Shown piece by piece: positions 1 to 23,758 of a DNA stretch of 34,779 nucleotides. The stretch covers positions 1 to 34,779 of the forward strand of contig DUOL01000072.1 in NCBI GenBank assembly GCA_012838875.1, written 5' to 3'. Below the pieces are notes generated by a model. It was not told where the DNA came from. It saw only the letters and a list, made by a program, of their open reading frames with translations, and ran no database searches. The translations under genes were made by a program, and so were the position numbers. This DNA is from Bacteroidales bacterium. GTDB taxonomy: Bacteria; Bacteroidota; Bacteroidia; Bacteroidales; WCHB1-69. Every line of letters starts with the position of its first letter. The stretch's first letter is position 1.

Positions 1-115
1 CGCGGCGGCAAAAAAGCGAGCTTGTAAGCTCTTTTTGCCGCCTTGCGTCCCCACGGCTTGTGCCCGCGGACTTGGAACCGGGCGCCGACCCCGAGCATAG
101 CGAGGGGGCACGCCC
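1..115 (+). repeat. GC-rich imperfect-palindrome repeat, copy A (left part cut off by window edge)
   Basis: 1-115 aligns almost base-for-base with 23531-23648 and with the reverse complement of 13784-13898. It ends ...ggggcacgccc, followed by an AT-rich tail taattaaaatt. Confidence 0.9.
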
Positions 116-234
116 TAATTAAAATTAAAATTAAAATTATTATTATAAAACTGAAAGATAGAAACCACGAAAATAACCAAAACAGAAAGGTTTATTTTTA
201 AATCCGACTATTTTTGTCGGTGAATAGTGCTAAT

Positions 235-969
235 TTAATGAGCTTTTTTCGTGGCGTTATAGGCAATGACCTCTTCATATTTCCCCATGTCCTGCCAGCT
301 GTCGTCAGAATGGTCGTATGCAACAATTTTATTTTGTGACGCAAGGGTAAGATAGATTTTGGTCAACGAGATTTTTTCATTTTCAGGAATAAGCTCTAAT
401 ATGTTCGGCGACACGATGTGAATACCGCTAAAAGCCAAATTAATAGGGCTTTGCGTAGGGTTTGTTTCAATTTTCTCGCCTGTTTTAATATTTGTCCACC
501 CGCAAAGCTGCTTGGAGTTTTTATCAAAAATAAAATAGCGAAACGTTTCACGATTTCTAACGGCAAGCGTTGCTAAAGGGGCTTGCTGCAAATGGAAATC
601 GCACATTTTTTGCAAATTGATATTAGAAATAATATCGACATTATAGAGCAAAATGGAGTTCGTATTTTGAAAAAAAGGAGAGGCAAATTTCAGTCCGCCT
701 CCTGTGTCTAACAACTTCTCCGACTCATCGGAAAAATAGATATTGGCATTAAAAGGCTTGTGATTATCAATAAATTGGCGTACTAAATCACTAAAATGAT
801 GAATATTGATTACGATATCGGCAATTCCCGCATCGACAAGTTTATTAATTGCATGCTCCAATAGAGTAACACCGTTAATCTCTACTAACGCTTTGGGGCG
901 GTCGGCAGTTAACGGGTAGAGCCTTGTTCCAAGTCCGGCGGCAAAAATCATTCCTTTTAGAGGTAACAT
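235..969 (-). CDS. sugar-phosphate nucleotidyltransferase (NTP_transferase family, MurU / mannose-1-P guanylyltransferase-like)
   Basis: 244 aa. N-terminal GxGTRL nucleotide-binding motif (FAAGLGTRLYPLT). TAA stop. Confidence 0.8.
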   Translation of the reverse strand: MLPLKGMIFAAGLGTRLYPLTADRPKALVEINGVTLLEHAINKLVDAGIADIVINIHHFSDLVRQFIDNHKPFNANIYFSDESEKLLDTGGGLKFASPFFQNTNSILLYNVDIISNINLQKMCDFHLQQAPLATLAVRNRETFRYFIFDKNSKQLCGWTNIKTGEKIETNPTQSPINLAFSGIHIVSPNILELIPENEKISLTKIYLTLASQNKIVAYDHSDDSWQDMGKYEEVIAYNATKKAH

Positions 970-7870: not shown

Positions 7871-7976
7871 CACCCAATTTCATTTTGAATAAAGTATAGG
7901 GAAGCGAGAGGGAAGTAAATAATTGAAATTAAAATAAATAGAACTGAACAAAGAGTAGAATTTAAGAAATAAACCC

Positions 7977-8435
7977 ATGGGAGTAAGAAGAAAAAGATTA
8001 GCAGCAGAAGCACGAAAAGAGTCAAAAAAGAATATATACATGGCTCGTTTAATGAATAACCCTACATCACCTCGTAAAACACGACTCGTAGCTGATATGG
8101 TTAGAGGGAAAGATGTAGATTATGCTTTAAATGTATTGAAACACAATAATAGAGAGTCGGCAGAAAAGATTTTTAAACTCTTAAAATCAGCTATCGCTAA
8201 CTGGCAAACCAAAAATGAAGGTGTAAGATTAGAGGATGCTCAATTGTACATAAAAACAATTACGGTTGATGGTGGTAGAATGCTTAAACGTATTCGTACT
8301 GCTCCGCAAGGAAGAGCAAACAGAATAAGAAAACGCTCAAATCACATTACCATCATTCTCGGTGATAGAAATGCCAATATGGATATTGATATAAATGATA
8401 ATAATATAATAGAAGAAACTGAAAACATTAAATAA
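7977..8435 (+). CDS. rplV: 50S ribosomal protein L22 (uL22)
   Basis: 152 aa. [16 protein letters not shown] and [15 protein letters not shown] motifs. Has a short acidic/Asn-rich C-terminal tail. Confidence 0.96.
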
Positions 8436-8443
8436 ATTTTAGC

Positions 8444-9166
8444 ATGGGGCAAAAAGTTAATCCAATAGGTTTAAGATTAGGAATTATTAGAAGCTGGGAT
8501 TCTAATTGGTACGGTGGAAAAAATTTCGCTGATAAAATAGTTGAAGACGACAAAATCAGAAGATATTTGAATGCTCGTTTATATAAAGCCGGCATATCAA
8601 AAATTTATATAGAGAGAACACTTAAGCTTGTTACAGTTACTATCCACACCGCTCGTCCGGGTCTTATTATAGGAAAAGGAGGAACTGAAGTTGATAAACT
8701 GAAAGAAGAGTTGAAAAAAATTACTAATAAAGAGATACAAATTAATATCTCCGAAGTAAAACGCCCTGATTTAGATGCTGTACTGATTGCTCAAAATATT
8801 GCAAAACAGATAGAGGGTAGGATTTCGTACAGAAAAGCTATTAAAACTGCCATTGCTTCTACAATGCGAGCAAATGCAGAAGGGATAAAAGTTTCCATCT
8901 CCGGTCGTTTGGGAGGTGCTGAAATGGCAAGAACAGAGCATTTTAAAGAAGGAAGAACTCCATTACATACTCTACGTGCAGATATTGATTATGCTAAAGC
9001 CGAAGCTCATACGACCTACGGTCGAATCGGTCTCAAAGTATGGATATGTAGAGGTTTAGTTTATGGCAAAAAAGATTTGTTTAACTTGGCAGACAGTGGA
9101 AAAGATGCTAAAGGAGCCGGTGGAAGAAGACCTCCAAGAAGAGTAAGAGCCGAAAAGAATAGATAA
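8444..9166 (+). CDS. rpsC: 30S ribosomal protein S3 (uS3)
   Basis: 240 aa, starts [14 protein letters not shown]; KH domain; position in cluster. Confidence 0.97.
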
Positions 9167-9203
9167 TATTGAATAAAGTAGAAAACAATATAAATATATA
9201 GCG

Positions 9204-9629
9204 ATGTTACAACCAAAAAAGACGAAATACAGAAGACCGCAAAAGGGGAGAATGAAAAATATCACCAAACGTGGAAGTGAGATAGCTTTCGGGTCGTTTG
9301 CCATTAAGACGTTGGAACAACAGTGGATAACCGGTAGACAGATTGAAGCGGCACGACAAGCCATTACACGTTACATGAAACGTGAAGGACAGTTGTGGAT
9401 ACGTATTTTCCCGGACAAACCAATTACTAAAAAACCTGCCGAAGTTCGTATGGGTAAAGGTAAAGGTTCGCCCGAGTTATTTGTTGCTCGCGTTAGTCCC
9501 GGTAGAATTTTATTTGAAGCTGACGGCGTTCCCTTCGAAGTTGCAAAAGAAGCCCTTCGCTTAGGAGCTCAAAAATTACCCGTAGCTACAAAATTTGTTG
9601 TTAGAAGAGATTATTCCGAAGAAATATAA
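9204..9629 (+). CDS. rplP: 50S ribosomal protein L16 (uL16)
   Basis: 141 aa, starts [16 protein letters not shown]. Confidence 0.97.
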
Positions 9630-9634
9630 TAGAG

Positions 9635-9844
9635 ATGAAACAAAAAGTTATACATGAACTTTCTACCCCTGAGGTAATTGAAAGATTAGCGGAAGAGGAA
9701 AAACATTTGATTAAAATGAAATTAAATCATGCCGTATCTCCTCTTGAGAATCCTAATAAGATTAAAGAACAACGAAGAACCGTTGCTCGACTTAAGACAG
9801 AATTACGCAAACGTGAAATTAATCAACAATTGAAATCAGAATAA
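9635..9844 (+). CDS. rpmC: 50S ribosomal protein L29 (uL29)
   Basis: 69 aa, helical; sits between rplP and rpsQ. Confidence 0.92.
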
Positions 9845-9849
9845 GGATT

Positions 9850-10107
9850 ATGGAAGAAAGAAATAAAAGAAAAATCAGAGAAGGTCTTGTTGTTAGTAAT
9901 AAGATGGATAAATCTATCATTGTTAGCGTAGAAAGAAGATTTAAACACCCTAAATACGGCAAGTTTTTAAAGAAAAATTCAAAGTTGGCAGCTCATGACG
10001 AAAAAAATGAGTGCAACATCGGAGATAAAGTAAGAGTTATGGAAACCAGACCCATAAGTAAAACGAAGTGCTGGCGTTTAGTAGAAATTATTGAAAGAGC
10101 GAAATAG
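9850..10107 (+). CDS. rpsQ: 30S ribosomal protein S17 (uS17)
   Basis: 85 aa; [27 protein letters not shown]. Confidence 0.96.
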
Positions 10108-10109
10108 TT

Positions 10110-10478
10110 ATGGTACAACAAGAATCAAGATTATTAGTAGCTGATAACAGCGGTGCAAAAGAAGTACTCTGCATCCGCGTGTTAGGTGGAACTAGAAAAC
10201 GCTACGCCGGCGTAGGAGATAAAATTATTGTTACTGTTAAAAGTGCTATCCCCGCCGGAAATATTAAAAAAGGAACAGTCTCTAAAGCTGTTATAGTAAG
10301 AACTAAAAACCGAATACGAAGAGGGGACGGCTCTTATATCAAGTTTGACGATAATGCCGTAGTTCTGCTTACAGCAGCGGAAGAACTAAGAGGAACCCGT
10401 ATTTTCGGACCTGTAGCTCGCGAACTTCGCGAAAAACAGTATGTGAAAATTATCTCTCTAGCTCCTGAAGTTCTTTAA
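10110..10478 (+). CDS. rplN: 50S ribosomal protein L14 (uL14)
   Basis: 122 aa, starts [18 protein letters not shown]. Confidence 0.97.
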
Positions 10479-10541
10479 GAAAGCAAAAATTAATAAATAT
10501 AAATGGACAATTGACAAAGACCAATTGCAAAAAAAAGAAAA

Positions 10542-10856
10542 ATGAAAATACATATTAAAAAAGGTGATATCGTAAAAGTAATAGCCGGTAATTCAAAAGG
10601 ATTACAAGGTAAGGTACTGAAAGTGGATAAAGATAAGTATAGAGCTTTAGTAGAAGGTATGAACCTCATACAAAAACATACGAAAGCTAATGCTAAAAAT
10701 CCACATGGTGGCATTATTAAAAAAGAAGCCCCTATTCATCTCTCAAATTTGATGGTTGTAGATTCTAAAGGAAATGCAACCCGAATTGGCAGAAGATTAG
10801 GCGAAAAAGGTAAATTAGTTAGATATTCTAAAAAAACAGGAGAGGAGATTAAATAA
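10542..10856 (+). CDS. rplX: 50S ribosomal protein L24 (uL24)
   Basis: 104 aa; [18 protein letters not shown] motif. Confidence 0.96.
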
Positions 10857-11410
10857 TGTACACACCAAGATTTAAAGAGAAATATTTAAAAGAAATCGTT
10901 CCCGCTTTAAAGGAACAATTTGGTTTTACTTCCGTAATGAGAGTACCGAAAATTACCAAAATTTGTCTAAACCAAGGACTTGGTAAATATGGAATCGCCG
11001 ATAAAAAACTCCTCGATGTCGGAGTGGAAGAGATGACAATGATTGCAGGGCAAAAAGCTGTTCAGACAAAGTCTAAAAAAGACATCTCGAACTTTAAATT
11101 AAGACGCGGCATGCCTATCGGCGTTCGAGTAACGTTACGCGGCGAAAGAATGTACGAATTTCTCGATAGATTAGTATCGGTTTCCATTCCTCGTATTCGC
11201 GACTTTAGAGGTATTAGCGATAAAGGATTTGACGGTCGTGGAAATTATACGTTAGGTGTTCCCGAACAGATTATCTTCCCCGAAATTGATATCGACAAAG
11301 TGGCAAAAATTAACGGAATGGATATCACATTCGTTACTACCGCCCGAAACGACAAAGAGTGCTTAGCACTATTAAAAGAATTTGGATTACCGTTTAAAAA
11401 TCAAAAATAG
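10856..11410 (+). CDS. rplE: 50S ribosomal protein L5 (uL5)
   Basis: 184 aa. The ATG overlaps the rplX stop (taATG). Contains IPRIRDFRG. Confidence 0.97.
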
Positions 11411-11413
11411 AAT

Positions 11414-11719
11414 ATGGCAAAAGAATCATTGAAAGCAAAAGAGGTAAAAAGAGCACGTTTAGTGGCTAAATATGCCGCAAAACGGACTGAATTAAAGAAG
11501 ATTATTAACAGCAATGATAATGATTATGAAGCAAAACAAGCGGCTATTATTGCTTTGCAAAAATTGCCACCCAATTCTAACCCGATTAGAATGCATAATC
11601 GCTGTAAATTAACGGGACGTCCAAAAGGATATATACGTCAGTTTGGCATTTCTCGTATTAATTTTAGAGAAATGGCTTTAGCAGGGCTTATTCCCGGAGT
11701 AAAAAAAACAAGTTGGTAA
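11414..11719 (+). CDS. rpsN: 30S ribosomal protein S14 (uS14, long non-zinc form)
   Basis: 101 aa; C-terminal [26 protein letters not shown]. Confidence 0.95.
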
Positions 11720-11743
11720 TATTTTAAAAAGAAGTAGAGAATT

Positions 11744-12142
11744 ATGAATACCGATCCGATTTCAGATTATTTAACAAGAATAAGAAATGCCATTATGGCA
11801 AATCATAAAGTTGTAGAGATTCCAACCTCAAAAATCAAAAAAGAGATTACCAAAATTTTGTTTGAGAAAGGTTATATCTTAAATTATAAATTTATTGACG
11901 ATACCCACCCCGGCACTATCAAAATCGCTCTAAAATATCACCCCGTTACTAAATTGTCTGCTATTAATAAATTGCAACGTGTTAGTAAACCGGGACTGCG
12001 TAAATATGTGAATGTTGAACAAATGCCTTCCGTGTTAAATGGGTTGGGCATTGCCATTATTTCTACATCACGTGGCATGATGACCGATAAAGAGGCTAAA
12101 GCGCAAAACGTTGGTGGAGAAGTTTTATGTTACATTAGTTAA
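11744..12142 (+). CDS. rpsH: 30S ribosomal protein S8 (uS8)
   Basis: 132 aa, starts [16 protein letters not shown]. Confidence 0.97.
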
Positions 12143-12160
12143 AAATAAGGAGAGAGAGAT

Positions 12161-12718
12161 ATGTCAAGAATTGGAAAATTGCCAATCACGCTCCCTAAAG
12201 GAGTCGAAATTTCAAGAGATGAAAAAACAAATATTGTTACCGTTAAAGGTTCTCTTGGCGAACTAAAACAGTATGTTGACGGGGCTATTAACTATACAAT
12301 CGAAGATGGTCATGTAGTTTTAACAAGAGCGACCGAACAAAAAAGACACAAAGCCTTACATGGGCTATACAGATCGCTGCTTGCCAATATGATAAAAGGA
12401 GTTTCCGAAGGTTTTGAAGTTAAACAAGAACTTGTCGGTGTCGGATACAAAGCTGAAGCTAAAGGGCAACAATTAGAACTTTCATTAGGCTACTCACACA
12501 ATATTCTTTTTGAACTACCTCAAGAGGTAAAAGTAGAAACCATTACGGAAAAAGGGAAAAATCCTATTATTGTGCTTAAAGGAACCGACAAACAACTCTT
12601 AGGACATATTGCAAGTAAAATTCGTTCCTATAGAAAACCTGAACCTTACAAAGGAAAAGGTATCCGCTTTGTTGGAGAAGAAGTTAGAAGAAAAACAGGT
12701 AAAACAGCTGAAAAATAA
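12161..12718 (+). CDS. rplF: 50S ribosomal protein L6 (uL6)
   Basis: 185 aa, starts MSRIGKLPITLPKGVE. Confidence 0.97.
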   Translation: MSRIGKLPITLPKGVEISRDEKTNIVTVKGSLGELKQYVDGAINYTIEDGHVVLTRATEQKRHKALHGLYRSLLANMIKGVSEGFEVKQELVGVGYKAEAKGQQLELSLGYSHNILFELPQEVKVETITEKGKNPIIVLKGTDKQLLGHIASKIRSYRKPEPYKGKGIRFVGEEVRRKTGKTAEK

Positions 12719-12736
12719 TAAAAAGGAGATACGAAA

Positions 12737-13096
12737 ATGGCTTATAATCAAAAAGAATATAGAAGAAAACGAATCAAACAAAGAATTCGTAAAATTGTTA
12801 ACGGTACGCCGGAACGCCCGAGAATGTCCGTCTTTAGAAGTAATCACGATATTTACGTTCAGCTTATTGATGATATCGCAGGGCACACCCTATTGTCCGC
12901 CTCTTCTGCTATTCCCGAAATACAAGAACAGAAAATTACAAAAACAGAAAAATCTGCTCTCGTAGGGAAATTAATCGCACAAAAAGCAAAAGAAGCCGGC
13001 ATCGAAAAAGTTACATTCGACCGTAACGGCTATTTATATCATGGTAGAGTTAAATCTTTGGCAGAAGCAGCTAGAGAAGGTGGTTTAATTTTCTAA
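12737..13096 (+). CDS. rplR: 50S ribosomal protein L18 (uL18)
   Basis: 119 aa; [20 protein letters not shown] and [13 protein letters not shown]. Confidence 0.96.
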
Positions 13097-13106
13097 GAAA
13101 AAAAAT

Positions 13107-13625
13107 ATGACAAATATTAATATGCAACGAGTAAAATCAGCCGAAATTGAATTTAAAGACAGATTAGTAGCTGTTAACAGAGTAACAAAAGTAACAAAAG
13201 GGGGACGTACGTTCAGTTTCTCCGCTATTGTCGTAGTGGGTAACGAAAATGGCGTAGTAGGTTACGGCTTAGGAAAAGCAAAAGAAGTTTCAGCAGCGAT
13301 ACAAAAAGGAATTGACGATGCAAAAAAGAACCTTATTCGCGTTCCTATTCTTAAAGGCACCCTTCCGCACGCTCAGGAAGGAAAATATAGCGGTGCGTCC
13401 GTCTTTATGAAACCTGCCGCTCCCGGTACAGGAGTTATTGCCGGTGGTGCTATGCGTGCCGTTTTGGAAAGTGTCGGCATTAAAGACGTTCTCGCTAAAT
13501 CTAAAGGAGCTTCCAATCCTCATAGCGTAGTAAAAGCTACCATCAGAGCTTTGGCACAAATTCGCGACCCCTACGCCGTGGCACAAGTTAGGGGTATCCC
13601 TCTCGAAAAAGTTTTTAACGGCTAA
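13107..13625 (+). CDS. rpsE: 30S ribosomal protein S5 (uS5)
   Basis: 172 aa; [24 protein letters not shown]. Confidence 0.97.
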
Positions 13626-13671
13626 GAATTTATTGCAAAACCTCTATTTTAGAATAAAATATAGCATAAGG

Positions 13672-13708
13672 ACAAGGATTAGCATAAAACTAATCCTTGT
13701 TTTATTTT
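13672..13708 (+). terminator. rho-independent terminator after rpsE
   Basis: Perfect 11-bp stem acaaggattag/ctaatccttgt, 7-nt loop, then tttatttt. Confidence 0.8.
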
Positions 13709-13783
13709 ACGTGGGGTTAAGTAATATCTGAAGTCCTCGACAAATATCTTCTGTTAGGATAAAAATATTTTTATTTTTCTTTT

Positions 13784-13963
13784 GGGCGTGCCCCCTCGCT
13801 ATGCTCGGGGTCGGCGCCCGGTTCCAAGTCCGCGGGCACAAGCCGTGGGGACGCAAAGCGGCAAAAAGAGCTTACAAGCTCGCTTTTTTGCCGCAGCGTC
13901 CCCAACGGCTTCCGCCCTTGCGGGCTTTCCACCTAAGCGCCTCACGCAACCAACTTACTCATG
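13784..13963 (-). repeat. GC-rich imperfect-palindrome repeat, copy B (reverse orientation)
   Basis: 13784-13898 is the near-exact reverse complement of 1-115. The core ends at ...cctcacgc (13947). A further 16 nt (13948-13963) still match the inner flank of copy C at 12/16 positions. Confidence 0.9.
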
Positions 13964-14121
13964 CAGAAATATTAAACTTTGAGCTTTACACGCTTTTTGG
14001 AATAGTATCCGAAAAACTTGTAGAACACAGTGTCCTCTTGTGCCCTCCCAAGTTGTTGTACTACAAGAAAAACGTAATTTGGGGTATGAAACATGAGTTA
14101 GGACTTCACGTTTAAAATTTT

Positions 14122-14327
14122 TTAAAAAACTATTTGACTTTCCTTATCTTGTTTGGGATGTAACGAACGAGGTATCAATTTTCCCAACCATGTCGTTTTA
14201 ATAGTCTGTAAATAGTTGTTTTATGGACTTTCTTTCCATCTAATTTTTCAAAATCCTCTTGTATCTCATGAATCGTAACCAACTCCCCTTTTTCTAAACG
14301 AGAAATATACGAATTAATAAAATCCAT
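14122..14327 (-). pseudogene. IS630-family-like transposase N-terminal remnant (winged-HTH segment, frameshifted and truncated)
   Basis: A 50-aa ORF at 14175-14327 (below the track cutoff) reads MDFINSYISRLEKGELVTIHEIQEDFEKLDGKKVHKTTIYRLLKRHGWEN. After a +1 shift it continues ...KLIPRSLHPKQDKESQIVF*. The pattern xxTIYRLLKRxGW..k.pr..hpkqd..sq resembles the winged-HTH part of IS630/Tc1-type transposases. No DDE domain follows. Confidence 0.55.
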
Positions 14328-14350
14328 TTCTTATAGCCTGTGTAACACTG

Positions 14351-15031
14351 CTATCTTTTCTTTATTTCGTAATACCGTTTGTAATTTTCAATTTGTTTGA
14401 AAAAGTTTTCAGGGGACAATTTTTCTGTTATTAGTTTTGCAAATTGCTTTCCAAACCCTCTTTCCAAATTTGTTTTAATTACTTTGCCTGTTTTTTCGTC
14501 GATATTAACTAAAAATATACAAAGTTCATTGGGTCGGTGTGCTTGCGGAACGTCATAAATAAGTTTCAAATATTTTGTAATGTCTTTTTCATTGATAACT
14601 TCTATTTTTGAGGGCGTTACAGGATCGTTTTTCTTATAATACGGTGTTTGATAACGCATTATAATAATGTGTGCGTATGGAATTTGTTTTGCCTGTATGT
14701 TAGCGGTTTCGCCCATCATATTCTCAAAATAATTGTTAGCATTTTGCTTGTAATTGCTAGTTATAAACTTTATCCCCAAACAAAAGACTGGCGTTCCACC
14801 TTTCAGAACAGCAATATCAACATCTTTCGGATAATACTTTCCTTCAATTGTTGCTTCTTTTGAGCTTTCACTTAGATAGTGAATCTCGTACTTTTTACCC
14901 CATATCTCTTTGAGCGTATCTGCCATAAATTTATGAATTGGAAGAAGTTTTTGGGTACTTCTTGCTCCGTATTCTTTATATTTTTCAAATGAGTTTTTTA
15001 TGGCTTGTATTATTTTTTTTTCTTGGTACAT
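14351..15031 (-). CDS. putative type II restriction endonuclease (PD-(D/E)XK-like), partner of the adjacent methyltransferase
   Basis: 226 aa from the ATG at 15031; the track starts 2 codons earlier at TTG 15037. Candidate nuclease core is PKDVDIAVLKGGTPVFCLGIKF (D...x-K). It starts 2 nt after the methyltransferase TGA. I did not recognise a named REase family. Confidence 0.6.
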   Translation of the reverse strand: MYQEKKIIQAIKNSFEKYKEYGARSTQKLLPIHKFMADTLKEIWGKKYEIHYLSESSKEATIEGKYYPKDVDIAVLKGGTPVFCLGIKFITSNYKQNANNYFENMMGETANIQAKQIPYAHIIIMRYQTPYYKKNDPVTPSKIEVINEKDITKYLKLIYDVPQAHRPNELCIFLVNIDEKTGKVIKTNLERGFGKQFAKLITEKLSPENFFKQIENYKRYYEIKKR

Positions 15032-15033
15032 AC

Positions 15034-16536
15034 TCAAAATAATGTTAATGGATTTTTATAATTTATTTTAAATTCTTTTATCTGCTTGGATGTTATAGAC
15101 TTATAACCGCCTGAAAAATCTTTACTTGTCAAGCGGATATATTTATAAAACTCTTCGGATTGCAACGTATTTTCAATAATTCGCCATTCTGAATGTGGAT
15201 TTTTTTTAATAATAAATAACCCTGAATACATAAGTACATCTTTTGGCAACTTATAAAATTCAATACCATCATTGACGAGTGTACTTAATACAATTTTCTC
15301 ATTATGAATTGATTGCACTCCTTGACTTCGCCCGTATTCGTACCACAAAGCACCTTTATCAATGTCTCTATTTTCCAATTCAGTCCTATTTTTTAGAAAA
15401 TAATTATAGCAATTTGGATAATTTGTTTTCATTTTATCTTCTGGAATAACGTAATACCTACCTTTTATCAATTCATAGGGAAAGATAATTTTGATGTTTG
15501 CATCAATTACTCCTTTAAAACGCGACCCTTTTACAACGGTTTTTAATATACTTTTTTCAATCAATTCATTGTTAAACCACACAAGATTTTTGTTGTCTGA
15601 TTGCGTAATTTTCGCAATAAACACTTTATCTCTCAACGTAGCAAAACCATACTGAACATCAAAAAAATCTTTGATTGCTGAGTTTCTTCCGTTGTTTAAA
15701 TCGTTGAGAAAAACCGTATTCTCATTGTTTGAGAAAGACCAATCTTTGCTATTTAACTCACTGTATTTCACATTATTTACAAAAATAATTTTGTCGTTTT
15801 CTAATTCTTTGTATGTAAAAAAATCTTTATTGTAATTTTTCTGAAATACTGAAATAGCTGTGTATGTGGAAAATCCTTTGAAAAGTTTATTTGCTTTGAA
15901 ATCGATGAGAGTATGTACAGTTTTTTCGCGTTTCAGGAATTCTCTAAATTTCTTATACGAAGAATTGTGAAGATAACTATTTGGGGTAATATACCCTAAC
16001 AAACCACTAGTTTTTAACATTTTAAGCCCCATTTCAAAAAACGAAAGATAAATATCAATCGTGCCTTCCGAAAACTGAAAATCATTTTTCAGAGTTTCCC
16101 TTGTTTCCAAATCTAAGTTGTGTATTCGTATGTAAGGCGGATTGCCAACAACAAAATCAAATTTTGAAATATTGTTTTTATAGAAATCTAATGTATTGGT
16201 ATTTAATATGTTCCAATTTATTTTAGGGAGTTGGAATTCGTTTTTGAGTAATGTATTTAAGTTTTCAATGCATTTAGCATATTCTTTTTCATCTATCTCT
16301 ACACCAACTATATACGTTTCAATATCTAAAATTATTTGTTTGTCGTCTGCCTGATTTTCTCTTGCAATTTTTATATATCGTCTGACAATTTCGGTCAAAA
16401 ATGCTCCATCACCACAAGACGGCTCTAGGATATATTTCTTCAAAATATCTTTGCCATTATAGCCTACAATATCTAATATTTCGCAGACAATCCATTGTGG
16501 TGTATAAACTTGTCCTAGTGTTTTGTGTTTCGACAT
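15034..16536 (-). CDS. gamma-class N6-adenine DNA methyltransferase (TaqI/Eco57I-like with C-terminal target-recognition domain)
   Basis: GQVYTP near the N-terminus, motif I EPSCGDGAF, motif IV GNPPY, and a long C-terminal TRD-like region. I place the start at ATG 16536 (MSKHKTLGQVYTP) because a TATATTTG promoter box lies inside the longer track ORF. It is the only CDS in the window that ends in TGA. Confidence 0.9.
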   Translation of the reverse strand: MSKHKTLGQVYTPQWIVCEILDIVGYNGKDILKKYILEPSCGDGAFLTEIVRRYIKIARENQADDKQIILDIETYIVGVEIDEKEYAKCIENLNTLLKNEFQLPKINWNILNTNTLDFYKNNISKFDFVVGNPPYIRIHNLDLETRETLKNDFQFSEGTIDIYLSFFEMGLKMLKTSGLLGYITPNSYLHNSSYKKFREFLKREKTVHTLIDFKANKLFKGFSTYTAISVFQKNYNKDFFTYKELENDKIIFVNNVKYSELNSKDWSFSNNENTVFLNDLNNGRNSAIKDFFDVQYGFATLRDKVFIAKITQSDNKNLVWFNNELIEKSILKTVVKGSRFKGVIDANIKIIFPYELIKGRYYVIPEDKMKTNYPNCYNYFLKNRTELENRDIDKGALWYEYGRSQGVQSIHNEKIVLSTLVNDGIEFYKLPKDVLMYSGLFIIKKNPHSEWRIIENTLQSEEFYKYIRLTSKDFSGGYKSITSKQIKEFKINYKNPLTLF

Positions 16537-16565
16537 CGTACTTTTTCTTTCTATATTCTGTCTTG

Positions 16566-16573
16566 CAAATATA
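16566..16573 (-). promoter_or_regulatory. Bacteroidota -7 promoter box (TATATTTG) for the M-R operon
   Basis: Reverse complement of caaatata, 30 nt upstream of ATG 16536. Confidence 0.55.
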
Positions 16574-16858
16574 ATACTTTTTTTTGCCAACATTCTTCTT
16601 TTCGCAGCATTGCGTGCAACGGTTCGGGCATTTTACGAAATGATTTGCACTCAACAGCTGATTTATGCAACAAAGATACACATAAAAATAAAATTTTCAA
16701 TTCAATGATTTTAGCTTTTTTATCATTAGGTTACTTTGTATTGTAACTACCTTATAATTAGTGATATAAATTGGCATATTTTATAATTGCTTTAAAGTCA
16801 AGAGTTTTGAATTTTCAATTTGCACTTCTTAATATTTTCTCTTTCCTAAAATCCTTTG

Positions 16859-17040
16859 TACGAGCAAGTTGGCTGCGTGAGGGCGCAGGCGGAAAGCCCG
16901 TAAGGGCGGCAGCCGCTGGGGACGCGGCCGCAAAAAAGCGACTTTAGAAGCTCTTTTTGCCGCCTTGCGACCCCACGGCTACCGCCCGCGGACTTGTAGC
17001 CGAAGACCGACCCGTGAGCGCTAGCGAACGGGGCACGCCC
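16859..17040 (+). repeat. GC-rich imperfect-palindrome repeat, copy C (forward orientation)
   Basis: Core 16875-17040 runs gcgtgagggcgc...ggggcacgccc. It is collinear with copy E, with a variant central loop (gcgactttagaagc) and variant arm segments. Followed by the tail aaaagaaaaata, shared with copy B. Confidence 0.9.
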
Positions 17041-17259
17041 AAAAGAAAAATATGATTTTTATAATGCTTTTACCTTTTTTTATAATTTTAAGTATGGTAA
17101 TTCTGCTATTTTTTTACTACTTTTGTATCCGTTTTGATAAAGAAATATGCGAATGAATAAAATTTCGATATTTGTCGTAAAACGCTTTAAAAATGCACCT
17201 TTATATGCTAAAACTGCAGAAAAGACTTATTTTTATTTATACAAACAATTTCACTAATA

Positions 17260-18503: not shown

Positions 18504-21338
18504 ATGAAAAAAATGAAAAAATTTATTCTAACATTTTTTGTCGCAATCTATACCTTCGGAATGGTTGGGATGGCGCAAAATCTTAATTCACCGATTAATA
18601 ACGACCCCAATGTTAAAATCGGCAAACTTGACAACGGACTAACCTATTACATTCGTGAAAACAAGAAGCCTGAAAATCGCGTTGAACTCCGACTTGCCGT
18701 AAATGCAGGTTCTAATCAGGAGAATGACGACCAGCAAGGTCTCGCCCACTTCACGGAACACATGGCTTTTAACGGTATTAAAGGCTTTCCGGGTAATAAG
18801 GTAATCAGTGAATTGCAAAAAATCGGAGTCTCTTTCGGAGGTGGAATTAATGCTTATACCTCTTTCGATGAAACCGTTTATATGATTCAAATGCCGACAG
18901 AAAATAAAAAACATGTCGACATGGGACTCAACATATTAAAAGGTTGGGCTTCCGGTTTGCTTTTTAATGCTAAGGAAATTGAAAGTGAGCGCGGCGTCAT
19001 CGCTGAAGAGTATCGTATGGGCTTGGGCGCTAGCGACAGAATGAGAAAAGTGTGGTGGCCTGTTCTCTTTAAAGATTCACGTTATGCAGAACGTATGCCT
19101 ATCGGCTTAATCGAAATTATTAACGGCTTTGAACATCAAACGATTAAAGATTTTTACAAAGATTGGTATCGTACTGATTTACAAGCTGTTATTGTTGTTG
19201 GAGATATCAATGCCGAGGAAATTGAGAAAATGATTATTAAAAAATTCAGCTCCATTAAACCGGTTAAAAATCCAAGAGAAAAATTGATTTATCCTATTAA
19301 GGAAAATAAAGAGCCGTTAGTTTCTATTTGTACCGACAAAGAAGCTATGGGAACGCAAGTTATGTTAGTGCGTAAACACCCTCATAATGTTATGAAAACC
19401 GTGGCAGATTATAGAAATTATATGGCAACGGAACTTTATAACATCATGTATGAATCACGGTTGACCGAGCTACAACAAGAGCCTAATTGTCCTTTTATAC
19501 AAGCCTTTACCGGTTACGGGGATTTTATCGGAAATACGGACGCTTACGTTTCACAAGCCGCCTGTAAAGAGAACAAAATTAATGAAACTATTGAGACATT
19601 AATTCGTGAAGATTACCGCGTTTTAAATCATGGGTTCTTAGAAAGTGAATTAAAACGTGCCAAAGAAGATTTGTTAAATAGGTACGAAATTGCGGCAAAA
19701 GAGGTTAATAAGACGGAATCTGCCAGATTTGCCAATGAATATGTAGCGCACTACTTGCATAAAGACCCGATTCCGGGAGCAAAAAGAGAATTATCGTATG
19801 CACAAAAATATCTTGAGGATATTACGATTGATGAAATTAATGCGTTGGCAAAAGAATGGATTACCGATGAGAACCGAGTAGCTATTATAATGGCTCCGGA
19901 CAAAGAAGAGTTAATTATGCCTACGGAGCAAGAAGTTCTTAGCATTATGAACGACAAAGAATTAGCTAACGTTTCCCCATACATTGACACTTACAAAGAA
20001 CAAGAAATTGTAGAAAAAGAATCTCTTCAGCCGGGGACCATTGTCAACACTAAAATGCTTGATGAGATTGGAGCTAAAGAATTAACTCTCTCTAACGGTA
20101 TTAAAGTTATCACTAAGAAAACCGATTATAAAAATGATGAGATTCTTTTCTCAGCAAGAAGTCGTGGCGGTTATAGTTTGTACGAAGAAGCCGATCTTGC
20201 CTCAGCCATGTTTGCTGCCGATTTGATTGACCGCGCTGGCATCGGGGAACTCAATTTATCTTCATTATTGAAAAAAATGAAAGGTAAAAAAGTCGGCGTA
20301 ACGCCCTATATTTCAGCATTAGAAGAAGGGTTGTCAGGCTCGTCCACCCCAAAAGATTTAGACTTTTTCTTCCAATATATAAATGCATTTTTCTCAGCTC
20401 CAAGATATGATACTGCCGTTTATCATTTAGTAATTAATGAAACCATAGAACAGCTGAAAATGATAAAAGCAGCGCCGATGTATCAATTTTTCGGAGAATT
20501 TTTCGGTGAAATAACTCAACATGACCCTTACCAGCATAGTATCTTGACCTATTCCGATGAATTTATCAATACGGCTAATTATGAAAGAGCTTATAATTTA
20601 TATAAAGAGAGATTTGCTAATCCCGCCGACTTCACTTTCATTTTTGTAGGGAATTTTGACGAAGAGATAATGAATGAATTGCTCACAACCTATATCGCCT
20701 CCTTGCCAACAACTTCAAAAACGGAAGAGTTTAGAGGAGAAATAATTAAGGGATTTCCCGACAAACAAGTTGATAAAGATTACTTTGCCGGCATGGAAGA
20801 GCAAAGTTGGGTAGGAATCACCTATAATAAAGAGTACCCTTGGAACGCGAAAAACAACATGATTATCGACCAAATTGGCGAGGCACTTCAAATAGAACTT
20901 ATTGAAACGATTCGTGAAAAAATGAGCGGTGTCTACTCCCCTATGTTACAAATGGGATGCGAAAAATATCCGACCTCAACTTACACGCTTCTGGTAATGT
21001 TTAGCTGTTCTCCCGATAACACGACAAAACTCTCCGATGCCGTTTTTAACATTCTCAAAACGTTCCAACAGCAAGGACCGAAAGCCGAAACGCTGGCGAA
21101 GGTTAAAGAGCAGATGATTCTTCAACATCAAAATGATTATCAAAAAAATGAAAAATGGTTAAGCTATATCTCCGGACTTTATTACAATCAGGAAGAAAAT
21201 TGGTTAGACCATGTAAATACATACAAACAGCGAGTAAACGAGATAACCAACAAGGACATCGTTAACTTTATGAACCAATATTTCGATATCAACCATTTTG
21301 TAAAGATGGAGCTTTACCCGGAAGCAATGAAAAATTAA
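18504..21338 (+). CDS. secreted M16-family (insulinase/pitrilysin-like) zinc peptidase
   Basis: 944 aa; signal peptide; inverted zincin motif HFTEH (HxxEH). Confidence 0.9.
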   Translation: MKKMKKFILTFFVAIYTFGMVGMAQNLNSPINNDPNVKIGKLDNGLTYYIRENKKPENRVELRLAVNAGSNQENDDQQGLAHFTEHMAFNGIKGFPGNKVISELQKIGVSFGGGINAYTSFDETVYMIQMPTENKKHVDMGLNILKGWASGLLFNAKEIESERGVIAEEYRMGLGASDRMRKVWWPVLFKDSRYAERMPIGLIEIINGFEHQTIKDFYKDWYRTDLQAVIVVGDINAEEIEKMIIKKFSSIKPVKNPREKLIYPIKENKEPLVSICTDKEAMGTQVMLVRKHPHNVMKTVADYRNYMATELYNIMYESRLTELQQEPNCPFIQAFTGYGDFIGNTDAYVSQAACKENKINETIETLIREDYRVLNHGFLESELKRAKEDLLNRYEIAAKEVNKTESARFANEYVAHYLHKDPIPGAKRELSYAQKYLEDITIDEINALAKEWITDENRVAIIMAPDKEELIMPTEQEVLSIMNDKELANVSPYIDTYKEQEIVEKESLQPGTIVNTKMLDEIGAKELTLSNGIKVITKKTDYKNDEILFSARSRGGYSLYEEADLASAMFAADLIDRAGIGELNLSSLLKKMKGKKVGVTPYISALEEGLSGSSTPKDLDFFFQYINAFFSAPRYDTAVYHLVINETIEQLKMIKAAPMYQFFGEFFGEITQHDPYQHSILTYSDEFINTANYERAYNLYKERFANPADFTFIFVGNFDEEIMNELLTTYIASLPTTSKTEEFRGEIIKGFPDKQVDKDYFAGMEEQSWVGITYNKEYPWNAKNNMIIDQIGEALQIELIETIREKMSGVYSPMLQMGCEKYPTSTYTLLVMFSCSPDNTTKLSDAVFNILKTFQQQGPKAETLAKVKEQMILQHQNDYQKNEKWLSYISGLYYNQEENWLDHVNTYKQRVNEITNKDIVNFMNQYFDINHFVKMELYPEAMKN

Positions 21339-21358
21339 AAGCTCTTTCTACGTTTCTG

Positions 21359-21408
21359 TCTCTCCTTTATCTCTTTCTTAATTGAGTAGGTAAAGGAGAG
21401 ATTTTTTT
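21359..21408 (+). terminator. rho-independent terminator after the M16 peptidase gene
   Basis: 11-bp stem tctctccttta/taaaggagaga, 21-nt loop, then ttttttt. Confidence 0.65.
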
Positions 21409-21444
21409 ATAATCTTATTTTCTTAATAATCAGATTTTTTATTA

Positions 21445-21553
21445 GGGCGTACCCCCTCGCTGCGCTCGGGGTCGGTCTTCGGTTCCAAGTCCGCGGGCAC
21501 AAGCCGTGGGGTCGCAAAGCGGCAAAAAGAGCTTCTAAAGTCGCTCTTTTGTG
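21445..21553 (-). repeat. GC-rich imperfect-palindrome repeat, copy D (reverse orientation, truncated just past the centre)
   Basis: gggcgtaccccctcgctgcgctcgggg...gcttctaaagtcgctcttttgtg. Similarity to the other copies stops at about 21553, where a gene remnant begins. Confidence 0.85.
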
Positions 21554-21738
21554 TCGGAAGGGCAAACTTTTACACGATATTACGGTCGTGTTTGAATATC
21601 TTCTTTAGGATAGCCATAGTCTTCAACTAATTGACGTGAAAATACTTGGACTGCTTCAATTTCTTCAGGCGGCGCAAGCTCATCTCTCCCTGATATGTAG
21701 TCAGCCTGGCAGTTTTTCTTATTCTGTAGTATATGCAT
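21554..21738 (-). pseudogene. remnant of a restriction-enzyme N-terminal (HsdR_N-like) domain gene
   Basis: A 52-aa ORF at 21580-21738 reads MHILQNKKNCQADYISGRDELAPPEEIEAVQVFSRQLVEDYGYPKEDIQTRP. After the TAA the same frame continues YRVKVCPSD and then runs into repeat copy D. The PEE..vq.f...L.edYGYPKE.I motif is typical of HsdR_N-type nuclease N-termini (recognised from memory). Confidence 0.5.
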
Positions 21739-22171
21739 TTGCTGAAAACGAAACTTTTTACTGTAAAAAAATTAATCCCTCACAACGCTAAAATTTCCCA
21801 CATTTTTCATGTTCGCTACGATAACAGTTTCGAGGGCGGTAGGGCGTCAGGAATATGGTTGGTTTACACTGGGAAGTGAGTATAGATATCATCACCCTAC
21901 TCCGGATATATCAGTAAAAGACGGGCATGTTAATAGGTATATAGTAAGATATAGAGGGAGACCATTCATTATTGAACGAAATTTTCGATGGTAATCATTT
22001 CAAAATAAAGAAGTTATTTAACTTCGTGATTTAATACTATCCTATAAATCAATCGCTGAAAAATCATTTTGTAACTTCAACAACGCTTACTCTACCAAGA
22101 ATTACATTAAAAATTGCAACGTTTAATTTCACTCTATTATTTAATTTCATGAAAAACTGTCATTCAATACA

Positions 22172-23233
22172 CTACTCATAATATTGAAATTCACGCTCTG
22201 TGATTTCTTTCGGTGTATCATTTTCGAATGCGATTCGCTTAGTCCAGTTCTTATGTTCGTCATATTCATATTGCCAACTAAATTTCTCCGATGACTTTCC
22301 TTTTGCGTTGCGTCTATTTCCTTCTATCTTATTTCCTTGCTCATCATATTTATAAGTAGTCTTCCAATCTAAACCACCTGTTGAATTGTACTCATTTATC
22401 TCTATCAACTCTCCCTGTCTATCATATTTATAACTATACTTCTCATTTAAGGTGCCGTCAAAATTGTAACGAATCATATTATATTCCATCTTATTTCCAT
22501 GCTCGTCATAATTATAAATACCCTTCCAATTAAAATTACCGTCTGCATCGCACTCATTTTCCTCAATCAATTCTCCCTGCTCATTATATTTGTATGTATA
22601 TTTATAATTTAAAATACCCTTTGCCTTATCATACTCATTTTTTTCAATCAATATCCCCTTCTCATCATATATATAAGTACGCATAATGGAGATGGCATCT
22701 CTTAAACTGTAATTTTTTTCTTTTATCATGTGTCCTTGCTTGTCATATTTATAAGTAGTTCTAAGGAATGATTTACCTTGTAAATTGTATGAACACCACT
22801 TTTCTTTAATCATTTTTCCTTTCTTGTTATACTTATAAATTTTCTTCTCTTTCAAACTATCGTTTGAAAGAGAACCTTTTTCTTCAATCATCTTTCCTTG
22901 CTTATTATATTTATAAGTATACTTCCTATCTAAACTACCATCAGAAAGATACTCATTACTTTCAATCATATTCCCTCGCTCATCATATTGCCGTTGAAAA
23001 TGATATATTACGTTTCCCTTTTTAACTTTTCCCAAACTATTAATCGCTTCATATGTGAATTGGGTATAAGTCTTAACTTTACCTTTAAGACCATCTTTCG
23101 CCCAATTGTTGGATGGTTCGCTATTCTCGCAACCTTGTCCTTGCGTTTGATTTATAAAACCAAATAGTACTAACAACACAAATGCTGTTATTCTCATCTT
23201 TTTTAAGTGTGCTAAATACATTCTATTTTTCAT
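22172..23233 (-). CDS. lipoprotein built from about 9 YD-type repeats
   Basis: 353 aa. Signal peptide with Cys (FINQTQGQGC). Recurrent Y-x-Y-[DN]-x-x-G-x-x-I-E units (YKYNKQGKMIEE, YKYDKQGHMIKE, YKYNEQGELIEE, YKYDRQGELIEI, YKYDEQGNKIEG). Confidence 0.7.
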   Translation of the reverse strand: MKNRMYLAHLKKMRITAFVLLVLFGFINQTQGQGCENSEPSNNWAKDGLKGKVKTYTQFTYEAINSLGKVKKGNVIYHFQRQYDERGNMIESNEYLSDGSLDRKYTYKYNKQGKMIEEKGSLSNDSLKEKKIYKYNKKGKMIKEKWCSYNLQGKSFLRTTYKYDKQGHMIKEKNYSLRDAISIMRTYIYDEKGILIEKNEYDKAKGILNYKYTYKYNEQGELIEENECDADGNFNWKGIYNYDEHGNKMEYNMIRYNFDGTLNEKYSYKYDRQGELIEINEYNSTGGLDWKTTYKYDEQGNKIEGNRRNAKGKSSEKFSWQYEYDEHKNWTKRIAFENDTPKEITEREFQYYE

Positions 23234-23481: not shown

Positions 23482-23648
23482 GCGTGAGGCGCTTAGGTGG
23501 AAAGCCCGCAAGGGCGGAAGCCGCTGGGGACGCGGCGGCAAAAAAGCGAGCTTGTAAGCTCTTTTTGCCGCCTTGCGACCCCACGGCTTGTGCCCGCGGA
23601 CTTGGAACCGGGCGCCGACCCGTGAGCGCTAGCGAACGGGACACGCCC
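23482..23648 (+). repeat. GC-rich imperfect-palindrome repeat, copy E (forward orientation, full length)
   Basis: 167 nt, gcgtgaggcgcttaggtgg...gggacacgccc, with 113 G+C by hand count. Followed by the tail aaaagaaaa. Confidence 0.92.
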
Positions 23649-23758
23649 AAAAGAAAATTATTACAAATTTAATTATACATTTTTTAAAGTACTTTTTTGT
23701 AAAATCCTTCGTTATTCATTATTATCATAAAAACATAATATATTTCTCAAACTGCAAA

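What the first reader, a model, noticed from the sequence alone, without database searches (positions are those of the whole stretch)
13784..17040. Inverted pair of GC-rich repeats brackets a restriction-modification / transposase-remnant island inserted after rpsE
Copy B (-) and copy C (+) face each other. Their gcgtgagg ends point inward and their cacgccc-aaaagaaaaata ends point outward. B and C alone also share about 16 more inner-flank bases (aaccaacttactcatg versus the complement of tacgagcaagttggct, 12/16). Between them lie only accessory genes: an IS630-like remnant, a nuclease candidate and an m6A methyltransferase. The methyltransferase is the only CDS in the window ending in TGA. The geometry resembles a cassette bounded by inverted structured repeats (composite-transposon or MITE-pair-like). 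The outer flanks are inverted rather than direct, so I see no target-site duplication.
Basis: partly seen in the sequence, partly recalled or inferred. Interest (0 to 1): 0.65.

Follow-up and report, generated by a model that had tools for sequence, protein, structure and literature searches.

The report
Alternating structured repeats bracket R-M genes
The two facing GC-rich repeats are real, but they belong to a several-hundred-copy hairpin repeat family of an uncultured digester Bacteroidales; its copies alternate in orientation genome-wide, and head-to-head pairs enclose short, mostly accessory-gene slots, one of which holds this restriction-modification pair.

Summary
Repeat B (13772-13947, -) and repeat C (16875-17053, +) face each other. 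Between them lie an IS630-like stub, a restriction-endonuclease-like ORF and an m6A methyltransferase.

The composite-transposon reading is only partly right. B and C are two of five copies in the window and of at least 104 distinct intergenic sites in related metagenome contigs. DNA depth suggests several hundred copies per genome. There is no Rfam match. The fold (closing stem, long hairpin, small 3' hairpin) is kept through compensatory changes.

B resembles C (82%) less than it resembles E (97%). The "extra" shared inner bases are family consensus. The R-M pair occurs elsewhere without repeats. I found no empty site, no target duplication and no transposase.

The new result is that adjacent copies alternate in orientation: 42 of 46 pairs (p=5e-9).
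- Head-to-head gaps are short. They are empty or hold mostly defence, accessory or unknown genes.
- Tail-to-tail gaps hold housekeeping genes.

Strain-level synteny breaks concentrate at the repeats. Two "double-tailed" elements look like collapsed head-to-head pairs.

Best reading: a new REP/REPIN/MITE-like family. Its palindromic arms make the head-to-head intervals recombination-prone variable slots.

The parts
1..127 (+). Repeat copy A. The window start cuts off its 5' part. Its tail faces the 3' end of gene 235-969(-).
13107..13625 (+). rpsE, the last gene of a truncated r-protein cluster (rplV..rpsE).
   Evidence: Pfam Ribosomal_S5 and S5_C; cluster content
13669..13703 (+). rpsE's own intrinsic-terminator-like hairpin plus T-run. 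It lies upstream of repeat B.
13772..13947 (-). Repeat copy B core: GCGTG/CACGC closing stem, long hairpin, 3' small hairpin and A-rich tail. The tail end is at 13772.
13948..14095 (-). 5' extension of B. The first 60-70 nt are shared with at least 15 other sites. The whole 148 nt is 78% identical to the interior of the L185 head-to-head doublet.
14101..14327 (-). IS630-like transposase stub: N-terminal HTH plus a frameshifted continuation. There is no DDE domain. It occurs only at this locus in the sampled contigs.
   Evidence: Pfam HTH_Tnp_Tc3_2 E=1.5e-4 and NCBIfam IS630 E=2.8e-3, both below cut-off; translations; tblastn
14351..15037 (-). 228-aa restriction-endonuclease candidate. It overlaps the methyltransferase stop codon by 4 nt.
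   Evidence: 559 homologues with no Pfam family. Always next to an Eco57I-type MTase elsewhere. AF2 model pLDDT 92.8. Best PDB fold matches are all weak (E>=0.01) and nearly all PD-(D/E)XK restriction enzymes or NucC.
15034..16593 (-). Gamma-class N6-adenine DNA methyltransferase, with motif I LEPSCGDGAF and motif IV NPPY.
   Evidence: Pfam Eco57I 1.5e-26; PADLOC MTase_II 1.3e-84; PDB M.BseCI, CamA and M.TaqI; sequence
16594..16845 (.). AT-rich leader and promoter region of the R-M operon. RNA contigs begin at about 16641 and run to 13950.
16846..17053 (+). Repeat copy C: consensus 5' extension 16846-16874 and core 16875-17053. Its tail faces the OYE gene at 17260.
21436..21551 (-). Repeat copy D, the 3' half only. 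This site is polymorphic between strains (three alternative junctions at 21475).
23482..23660 (+). Repeat copy E. It is 97% identical to B and has a different 5' extension. Strain synteny breaks at its tail (23648).

Best explanation
B and C are ordinary members of a species-restricted, several-hundred-copy family of structured intergenic repeats. The core is about 180 nt, or up to about 245 nt with the 5' extension. The family is REP/BIME/REPIN- or MITE-like and matches nothing in Rfam.

Each copy has three parts: a closing stem (GCGTG...CACGC), a long imperfect hairpin, and a REP-sized 36-nt terminal hairpin followed by an A-rich tail.

Along the chromosome the copies alternate in orientation. 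The tails face blocks of core genes. The 5' heads face each other across short intervals ('slots') that are empty or carry mostly accessory or defence genes.

The island after rpsE is one such slot. It holds a horizontally acquired two-gene type II R-M module (an m6A methyltransferase and a PD-(D/E)XK-like endonuclease, co-transcribed) and a dead IS630-like stub. The repeats do not carry the module as a transposon.

Inferred, not shown: in a head-to-head pair, the reverse complement of one copy's 3' arm is a direct repeat of the partner's 5' arm. Recombination or slippage between the arms can therefore delete or exchange slot contents. Ordinary recombination between inverted copies reshuffles the blocks. 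This would make slots the variable part of the genome, with the repeats as its breakpoints.
For: Family size and position:
- 5 copies in the window.
- 120 metagenome loci with at least 83 distinct full-length copies and about 104 distinct sites in all, every one intergenic.
- Repeat unitig depth is 200-1200 times single-copy depth in 4 DNA runs.
- Absent from 80 relatives' loci.
- No Rfam hit, even at E<=10.

Structure:
- Fold z-scores of -4.6 and -6.9.
- 54-pair consensus with double compensatory changes at 18 pairs and few broken pairs.

Alternation:
- 26 head-to-head, 16 tail-to-tail and 4 direct pairs; p=5e-9, and gap sizes differ at p=3e-6.

Cargo:
- (slots) against (core blocks).
- Fisher p=0.004 for non-housekeeping content and 0.053 for defence/mobile content.

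The R-M module is independent of the repeats.

Co-transcription: a 2.7-kb RNA contig covers 13950-16641.

Breakpoints:
- 36 of 50 internal synteny breaks between >=97% identical contigs lie within 40 nt of a repeat, against 3.7% expected.
- In 29 of those 36, the conserved side is the tail side.

Collapsed pairs:
- Double-tailed elements at L167 2535-2721 (joining the OYE block directly to a dnaE-like gene) and at L211 2804-2987.
- No double-headed element in 1.3 Mb.
Against: - No enzyme that moves or recombines the repeats was found. There is no Y1/RAYT-like ORF in about 1.3 Mb of repeat-flanking DNA, and no transposase among the multi-copy protein families.
- Four of 16 gene-bearing head-to-head slots hold housekeeping genes: rimM-trmD, FKBPs, CitMHS, and an endonuclease/exonuclease/phosphatase-family gene with yegS.
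- The cargo classification is partly subjective.
- The sample consists of repeat-centred, redundant short-read metagenome contigs, not a closed genome.
- Assemblers can misjoin at 180-nt repeats, so some 'strain breakpoints' may be chimeras. The L167 arrangement rests on a single contig.
- The B-C slot itself shows no variation in any assembly.
- Neither double-tailed element is the empty form of the B-C slot.
Confidence: 0.55

Rival explanations
1. One reading: B and C are the terminal inverted repeats of a composite transposon or MITE pair. A trans-acting transposase moves the R-M/IS630 island as one unit.
For: Inverted geometry with conserved inner extensions. Accessory-only content with low GC. 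Head-to-head pairs around accessory genes recur.
Against: The arms are about 82% identical, while B is 97% identical to E. There is no target duplication. No empty site or second copy of the unit was found. The R-M module occurs elsewhere without repeats. The IS630 stub has no DDE domain and is unique to this locus. No transposase is linked to the family.
Confidence: 0.08
2. Slot integration by hairpin recombination. Double-tailed elements would be empty chromosomal sites (attB-like). A circular cassette carrying a double-headed element (attP-like) would recombine within the long hairpin. The result would be a head-to-head pair (attL/attR-like) around the cargo. The family would then be a dispersed, integron-like cassette system.
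For: It explains several observations at once:
- the strict alternation;
- tails next to core genes at a median of 54 nt from stop codons;
- the conserved 5' extension on the inner side;
- double-tailed but never double-headed elements in the chromosome, with junctions at the base of the long hairpin in both cases;
- divergence on the 5' side at 29 of 36 breakpoints.
Against: No recombinase and no circular form were seen. There are only two double-tailed sites among about 104. Some slots hold essential-looking genes. The R-M homologue elsewhere has no head modules. The short doublets show almost no RNA and no other sign of activity. Everything can also be explained by occasional hairpin-mediated deletion.
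Confidence: 0.17
3. Chance adjacency. The repeats are passive, abundant intergenic elements (roughly one per 7 kb) with a structural role such as terminator, insulator or nucleoid site. The R-M module merely landed between two of them. Alternation would result from selection against deletion-prone direct repeats.
For: 5 copies in 35 kb. Enrichment at gene 3' ends and in convergent intergenic regions. The hairpin apex matches a bidirectional terminator pattern. The R-M transcript contig ends at B. The structure is conserved.
Against: Selection against direct repeats is too weak to give 4 direct pairs out of 46. It also does not explain why head-to-head and tail-to-tail intervals differ in size and content, or why the double-tailed forms exist. 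The tail is A-rich, not a U-tract. rpsE has its own terminator upstream of B.
Confidence: 0.2

Closest known systems
REP / BIME elements of Enterobacteria and Pseudomonas
   Same: GC-rich imperfect palindromes that are strictly extragenic, often just after stop codons, and present in hundreds of copies. Orientation alternates. The terminal 36-nt hairpin is REP-sized. The abstract of PMC2817692 states that REPs in BIMEs alternate in orientation.
   Different: The unit is 180-245 nt, with a conserved three-part fold, not 20-40 nt. Alternation extends over kilobases with genes in between, not within a tight cluster. There is no GTAG or CGTC head motif. The host is an uncultured Bacteroidales.
REPIN-RAYT systems
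   Same: Inverted doublets recur at different sites: short head-to-head pairs 210-270 nt apart, such as L123 and L146, which share an interior. Inheritance looks vertical and species-restricted. The family forms a large population of diverged copies.
   Different: No RAYT or Y1 transposase was found in 1.3 Mb of flanking DNA. Doublet arms belong to different subfamilies (67-81% identical). Many pairs enclose genes.
MITEs such as Neisseria Correia elements, RUP and BOX
   Same: Non-coding, high-copy, intergenic and structured. They are associated with rearrangements and sit next to gene ends.
   Different: Single copies have no terminal inverted repeats beyond a 5-bp closing stem. No target-site duplication could be defined. 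No parent IS is known. Only the rare double-tailed variant looks like a TIR-bounded MITE.
Integron attC sites and cassettes
   Same: Structured, imperfectly palindromic sites border small accessory-gene cassettes.
   Different: attC sites lie in direct orientation in one array next to intI. Here the sites are inverted pairs scattered around the chromosome, and no integrase is seen.
Type II restriction-modification modules (M.BseCI, CamA and M.TaqI-type methyltransferases)
   Same: A gamma-class NPPY methyltransferase with an adjacent, overlapping small nuclease-fold ORF. The pair is co-transcribed and conserved across phyla.
   Different: The endonuclease family has no Pfam, PADLOC or NCBIfam model. 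The recognition site is unknown.

Membership tests
Composite transposon | Two copies of one IS, each encoding or derived from a transposase, flanking the cargo | tested here: not met
   The repeats are non-coding hairpins. The only transposase trace is an internal IS630-like stub that is not part of the repeats.
Composite transposon | Target-site duplication and occupied versus empty sites | tested here: not met
   The outer flanks are unrelated. All assemblies and at least 20 runs carry the island.
MITE | Terminal inverted repeats | tested here: not met
   Only the 5-bp GCGTG/CACGC closing stem is present in standard copies. TIR-like symmetry appears only in the two double-tailed variants.
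MITE | High copy number, non-coding, under about 600 bp | tested here: met
   About 104 distinct sites, depth 200-1200 times single copy, length 180-245 nt.
MITE | Target-site duplication | tested here: inconclusive
   The flanks are AT-rich and low-complexity. The only clean indel (site D) is a partial deletion, not an insertion.
REP / BIME | Extragenic position, GC-rich imperfect palindrome, more than 100 copies | tested here: met
REP / BIME | Unit of 20-40 nt | tested here: not met
   The conserved unit is about 180 nt. Only its terminal hairpin (36 nt) is REP-sized, and it occurs alone at two sites.
REP / BIME | Alternating orientation of neighbouring copies | tested here: met
   42 of 46 adjacent pairs alternate, but at spacings of 0.08 to 13.6 kb.
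REPIN-RAYT | A cognate single-copy Y1 (RAYT) transposase flanked by the repeats | tested here: inconclusive
   A profile of four IS200/IS605 TnpA sequences found nothing (best E=0.25) in 7029 ORFs from about 1.3 Mb. The genome is not complete.
Rfam RNA families | Match to a curated covariance model | tested here: not met
   Only a tRNA at gathering threshold. At E<=10, only generic miRNA-hairpin models below threshold.
Type II R-M system | DNA N6-adenine methyltransferase with SAM motif I and catalytic NPPY | tested here: met
Type II R-M system | Cognate endonuclease with a nuclease fold | tested here: inconclusive
   The model is confident. The Foldseek matches to BspD6I, BstEII, NucC, AgeI, BglII and others are all E>=0.01 with TM<=0.46. 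There is no profile hit.
Type II R-M system | Conserved gene pairing and co-expression | tested here: met
   The pair occurs together in L220-L224. One RNA contig spans both genes.
IS630 family | DDE transposase domain and TA-flanked inverted repeats | tested here: not met
   Only about 75 N-terminal residues remain, they are frameshifted, and the scores are below cut-off.

The most novel reading that the evidence does not exclude
The repeat family may be the footprint of a chromosome-wide cassette system. Double-tailed hairpin elements would be empty docking sites. Cassettes would integrate by recombination inside the long hairpin. Every integration would leave a head-to-head pair of full-length repeats (attL/attR-like) around the cargo. 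The genome would then be partitioned into fixed core blocks and hundreds of exchangeable slots for defence and accessory genes.
Probability: 0.17. Interest if true: 0.8.

Novelty: new variant of a known kind. Interest (0 to 1): 0.55.

Why it matters
If the alternation and the slot/core dichotomy hold in a closed genome, this would be a bacterial chromosome in which a single structured repeat family marks where accessory and defence genes sit. The same family would mark where strains rearrange. That would give a testable handle on how defence islets are gained and lost without classical mobile elements. It would also add a REP/REPIN-like population in Bacteroidota; I found no report of one there in a limited literature search. 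For annotation there are two practical points. Gene callers place spurious ORFs of about 100 aa inside these repeats. The repeats also break or misjoin metagenome assemblies of this abundant digester organism.

Tried and rejected
The second scan, with the S5 protein, found only relatives at 76-88% identity, none carrying the repeat.
- Possible repeat remnants at 7903-7938 (upstream of rplV) and 921-946 are chance matches. The first is plain AT-rich DNA and the second lies inside a CDS.
- I tested whether the frameshifted continuation of the IS630 stub (13958-14086) is transposase. It is not: it is repeat-family DNA shared with other sites.
- I tested whether 'T2' copies, which have a 5' GGAGAGAGATGGCA...TGCCATCTCTCTCC hairpin, are promoter-driven RNA genes. 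Four of five have a TAAGTTTG Bacteroidetes-type -7 box pointing into the copy. But RNA contigs over the unique interior of the L123 doublet and its T2 arm are near zero.
- RNA over the repeats is about 10-30 times that of neighbouring genes, while DNA is 200-1200 times. Most copies are therefore poorly transcribed.
- An inverton reading (invertible segment between inverted repeats) fails. All independent assemblies have the same orientation of the B-C interval.
- The search for a linked transposase failed. The multi-copy protein families near the repeats are surface proteins, ABC ATPases and sigma factors, and there is no Y1 transposase.
- Looking up the exact OYE protein for other contexts gave only the known arrangements.
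- Literature searches found nothing on this family.
Full report
**Observation.**
- Repeat B (core 13772-13947, minus strand) and repeat C (core 16875-17053, plus strand) are inverted copies of one GC-rich sequence in an AT-rich window. The matching arms are 127 nt long and 83% complementary (sequence).
- Their GCGTGAGG ends face inward and their CACGCCC-AAAAGAAAAATA ends face outward.
- A 26-nt core motif occurs five times in the window and never in 100 shuffles.
- The five copies are A 1-127(+), B(-), C(+), D 21436-21551(-, the 3' half only) and E 23482-23660(+). They alternate in orientation.

**Genes between B and C.**
All features lie on the minus strand.
- *IS630-like stub.* This is a 50-aa HTH fragment with a frameshifted continuation (14101-14327). 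Its matches to HTH_Tnp_Tc3_2 and to NCBIfam IS630 are weak and below cut-off, and there is no DDE domain.
- *228-aa ORF (14351-15037).* It has no match in Pfam, NCBIfam, PADLOC or PDB sequences. It has 559 homologues at 58-81% identity across phyla. In the other genomes looked at it sits next to an Eco57I-type methyltransferase. A confident AlphaFold model (pLDDT 92.8) gives only weak Foldseek matches (E>=0.01). Almost all of these are PD-(D/E)XK restriction enzymes or NucC. "Nuclease candidate" is reasonable but not proven.
- *519-aa methyltransferase (15034-16593).* It is a gamma-class N6-adenine DNA methyltransferase with motif I LEPSCGDGAF and motif IV NPPY. Supporting matches are Pfam Eco57I at 1.5e-26, PADLOC MTase_II at 1.3e-84, and M.BseCI, CamA and M.TaqI in the PDB.
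- *Expression.* The two genes overlap by 4 nt. One 2.7-kb metatranscriptome contig running from about 16641 to 13950 covers both.
- *Composition and stop codons.* Island GC is 0.29-0.32 against 0.366 for the window. TGA also ends the stub and ORF 33384-33929, so the "only TGA" remark is wrong.

**Source organism and fixation of the island.**
- Exact-protein look-ups place the locus in many anaerobic-digester and biogas metagenomes.
- All 19 contigs read are colinear with the window across 13.1-17.3 kb at more than 99% identity. None shows an empty site or an inversion.
- At least 20 DNA runs from 2015-2025 hold 94-96% of the region's 31-nt words.
- The nearest genomes in GTDB are unnamed Bacteroidales MAGs at 76-88% S5 identity.
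- The closest of these (L020, L021, L022, L042, L067, L069, L073, L076) also lack rpmD-rplO-secY after rpsE. More distant ones keep the canonical order.
- None of the 80 relatives' loci has the repeat.
- The break after rpsE is therefore older than this species and does not depend on the island.

**The R-M module is independent of the repeats.**
Window 14367-16613, which is exactly the two genes, is 79.5% DNA-identical to a pair in another MAG lineage (L220-L223). There the pair lies between an FtsX permease gene and rlmH-rpsL-rpsG, with no repeats and no IS stub. The stub occurs only at the window locus in the sampled contigs.

**The repeat family.**
- *Size.* A metagenome scan with a 31-nt core pattern returned 120 loci (about 1 Mb) from digester samples. 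These hold at least 83 distinct full-length copies and about 104 distinct sites. All are intergenic.
- *Consensus.* A moderately conserved 5' extension (TTAAATAGCTCTGTACGAGCAAnTTGGCT) comes first. A strongly conserved core of about 180 nt follows, running from GCGTGAGG to GGGGGCACGCCC. Last is an A-rich tail.
It is present in 80 of about 125 untruncated copies. A longer version of about 65 nt is shared by B and at least 15 other sites.
- *Copy number.* Unitig depth over the repeat is 200-1200 times single-copy depth in four DNA runs. That implies several hundred copies per genome.
- *No known RNA family.* No Rfam family matches.
- *Structure.* Single copies fold far better than shuffles (z = -4.6 and -6.9). 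An 83-sequence alignment gives a 54-pair consensus with three elements: a GCGUG/CACGC closing stem, a long hairpin, and a small 3' hairpin. Eighteen pairs show double compensatory changes and few are broken.
- *Modularity.* A diverged subfamily shares only the 3' module. Solo 36-nt terminal hairpins also exist.

**Is B-C a matched pair?**
No. B is 97% identical to E and 93% to A, but about 82% to C. Across 13 head-to-head pairs, partner identity averages 0.83, against 0.86 for random pairs. The tightest pairs are the least alike.

**Alternation and slots.**
- *Orientation.* Among 46 distinct adjacent pairs, 26 are head-to-head (as B-C is), 16 are tail-to-tail and 4 are direct. The binomial p is 5e-9.
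- *Not tied to transcription.* Orientation is not linked to the direction of neighbouring genes (18 co-directional against 16 anti-directional tandem contexts). However, the tail lies a median of 54 nt from the stop codon of a convergent gene.
- *Gap size.* Head-to-head gaps are short. Ten are 83-412 nt with no gene and the rest are 1-6.3 kb. Tail-to-tail gaps are 1.4-13.6 kb (p=3e-6).
- *Head-to-head cargo, accessory or unknown.*
  - the window R-M pair
  - the window RHS fragment
  - a type II methyltransferase (L102; PADLOC 7e-133)
  - GmrSD (L174)
  - HNH, PD-T7-4/DUF4145 and an MBL-fold protein (L118)
  - a RhuM/PDC-S05-like protein (L164)
  - a polysaccharide flippase with ATP-grasp genes (L194)
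  - several unknowns
- *Head-to-head cargo, housekeeping.* There are four such slots: rimM-trmD, FKBPs, CitMHS, and an endonuclease/exonuclease/phosphatase-family gene with yegS.
- *Tail-to-tail cargo.* All ten annotated intervals are housekeeping apart from one MORN-repeat protein. They include r-proteins, RNR, ftsZAQ, ftsH, uvrD, lysS and PreP.
- *Statistics.* Fisher p is 0.004 for non-housekeeping content and 0.053 for defence or mobile content.

**Breakpoints and collapsed pairs.**
- Between contigs at least 97% identical, 36 of 50 internal synteny breaks lie within 40 nt of a repeat, against 3.7% expected. Most of the others lie at the solo hairpin of site D.
- In 29 of those 36, the conserved side is the tail (core) side.
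- Site D has three alternative junctions, all at 21475. E is also a strain breakpoint.
- Two independent "double-tailed" elements exist, each consisting of a reverse-complemented 3' module, the long hairpin and a 3' module. One is at L167, where the OYE block joins a dnaE-like gene directly. The other is at L211.
- No "double-headed" element occurs in 1.3 Mb.
- Because the 5' arm resembles the reverse complement of the 3' arm, the arms of a head-to-head pair are direct repeats. A crossover or slippage between them deletes the slot and leaves exactly such a double-tailed element. This mechanism is inferred, not demonstrated.
- Neither example is the empty form of the B-C slot.
- Assembly chimeras at 180-nt repeats cannot be excluded for single-contig variants.

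**What was not found.**
- No transposase or recombinase is tied to the family.
- No target duplication was found.
- The repeats show no strong transcription relative to their copy number.

**Conclusion.**
The composite-transposon reading does not fit this island. The element is best filed as a new, unusually large REP/REPIN/MITE-like family. Its kilobase-scale alternation defines variable slots. The cassette-integration reading remains possible but unproven.

Noticed in passing
window 7977-13625; L109 4883-6092 and 6409-6845: The r-protein cluster is cut at both ends. It runs only from rplV to rpsE and is preceded by PhoU-like and PHO4 genes. In the same organism the infA-rpsM-rpsK-rpsD-rpoA-rplQ cluster lies elsewhere and starts right after a head-to-head repeat pair. 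rpmD-rplO-secY-map were not found in the sampled loci. The break after rpsE is shared with the closest Bacteroidales MAGs.
   Followed up: partly
window 21330-21800 against L013 18242-18440 and L011 18232-18560: Three strain variants occur downstream of the M16 peptidase gene, all diverging at 21475 inside repeat D. One has the half copy plus 200 nt. One has only the 36-nt terminal hairpin, then a jump to 21756. One has the hairpin flanked by tails on both sides, followed by murF-mraY genes instead of the RHS region.
   Followed up: yes
window 13801-14115 (+): A 104-aa ORF with 50% GC lies inside repeat B and its extension. Some assemblies (L014, L019) call the equivalent ORF a gene of 108-109 aa. 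It is almost certainly a gene-calling artefact of the GC-rich repeat. Similar ORFs form a 'multi-copy family'.
   Followed up: partly
window 22172-23233 (-): A 353-aa RHS/YD-repeat ORF with internal DNA repeats of about 78-84 nt (families D1 and D2) sits in the D-E head-to-head interval. It looks like a fragment rather than a full RHS toxin gene.
   Followed up: no
L220-L223 (other MAG lineage, e.g. GCA_041845865.1): The homologous R-M pair lies next to rlmH and an unusual r-protein arrangement: rpsL-rpsG is followed directly by a 65-aa ORF, then rpmJ-rpsM-rpsK-rpsD-rpoA-rplQ. Operon scrambling is therefore widespread in this group.
   Followed up: no
L123 10437-11027, L146 2-573, L185 2876-3467, L152 9960-10567, L171 1691-2272: Composite doublets of about 600 nt recur. 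They consist of a standard arm, a conserved interior of about 230 nt and a diverged 'T2' arm preceded by a GGAGAGAGATGGCA...TGCCATCTCTCTCC hairpin. L123 and L146 share the same interior but sit at different genomic sites. The interior carries a TAAGTTTG (-7-like) box pointing into the T2 arm, yet shows almost no RNA.
   Followed up: partly
L158 5386-5450 and the 'gactatgctattcatagctccttcct' copies (L112, L125, L132, L154, L194, L200, L204, L212): A second subfamily has a strongly diverged long hairpin. Internal-deletion derivatives that lack the hairpin centre also exist. Both share only the 3' module (GCGGACTTGG...small hairpin...tail).
   Followed up: partly
window 33384-33929 (-): This 181-aa ORF has no Pfam family, very low GC (0.27) and a TGA stop. 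It may be another foreign gene, and no repeat lies beside it in the window.
   Followed up: no
window 31735-31818 (-): A tRNA gene. It is the only Rfam match in the window at gathering threshold.
   Followed up: no
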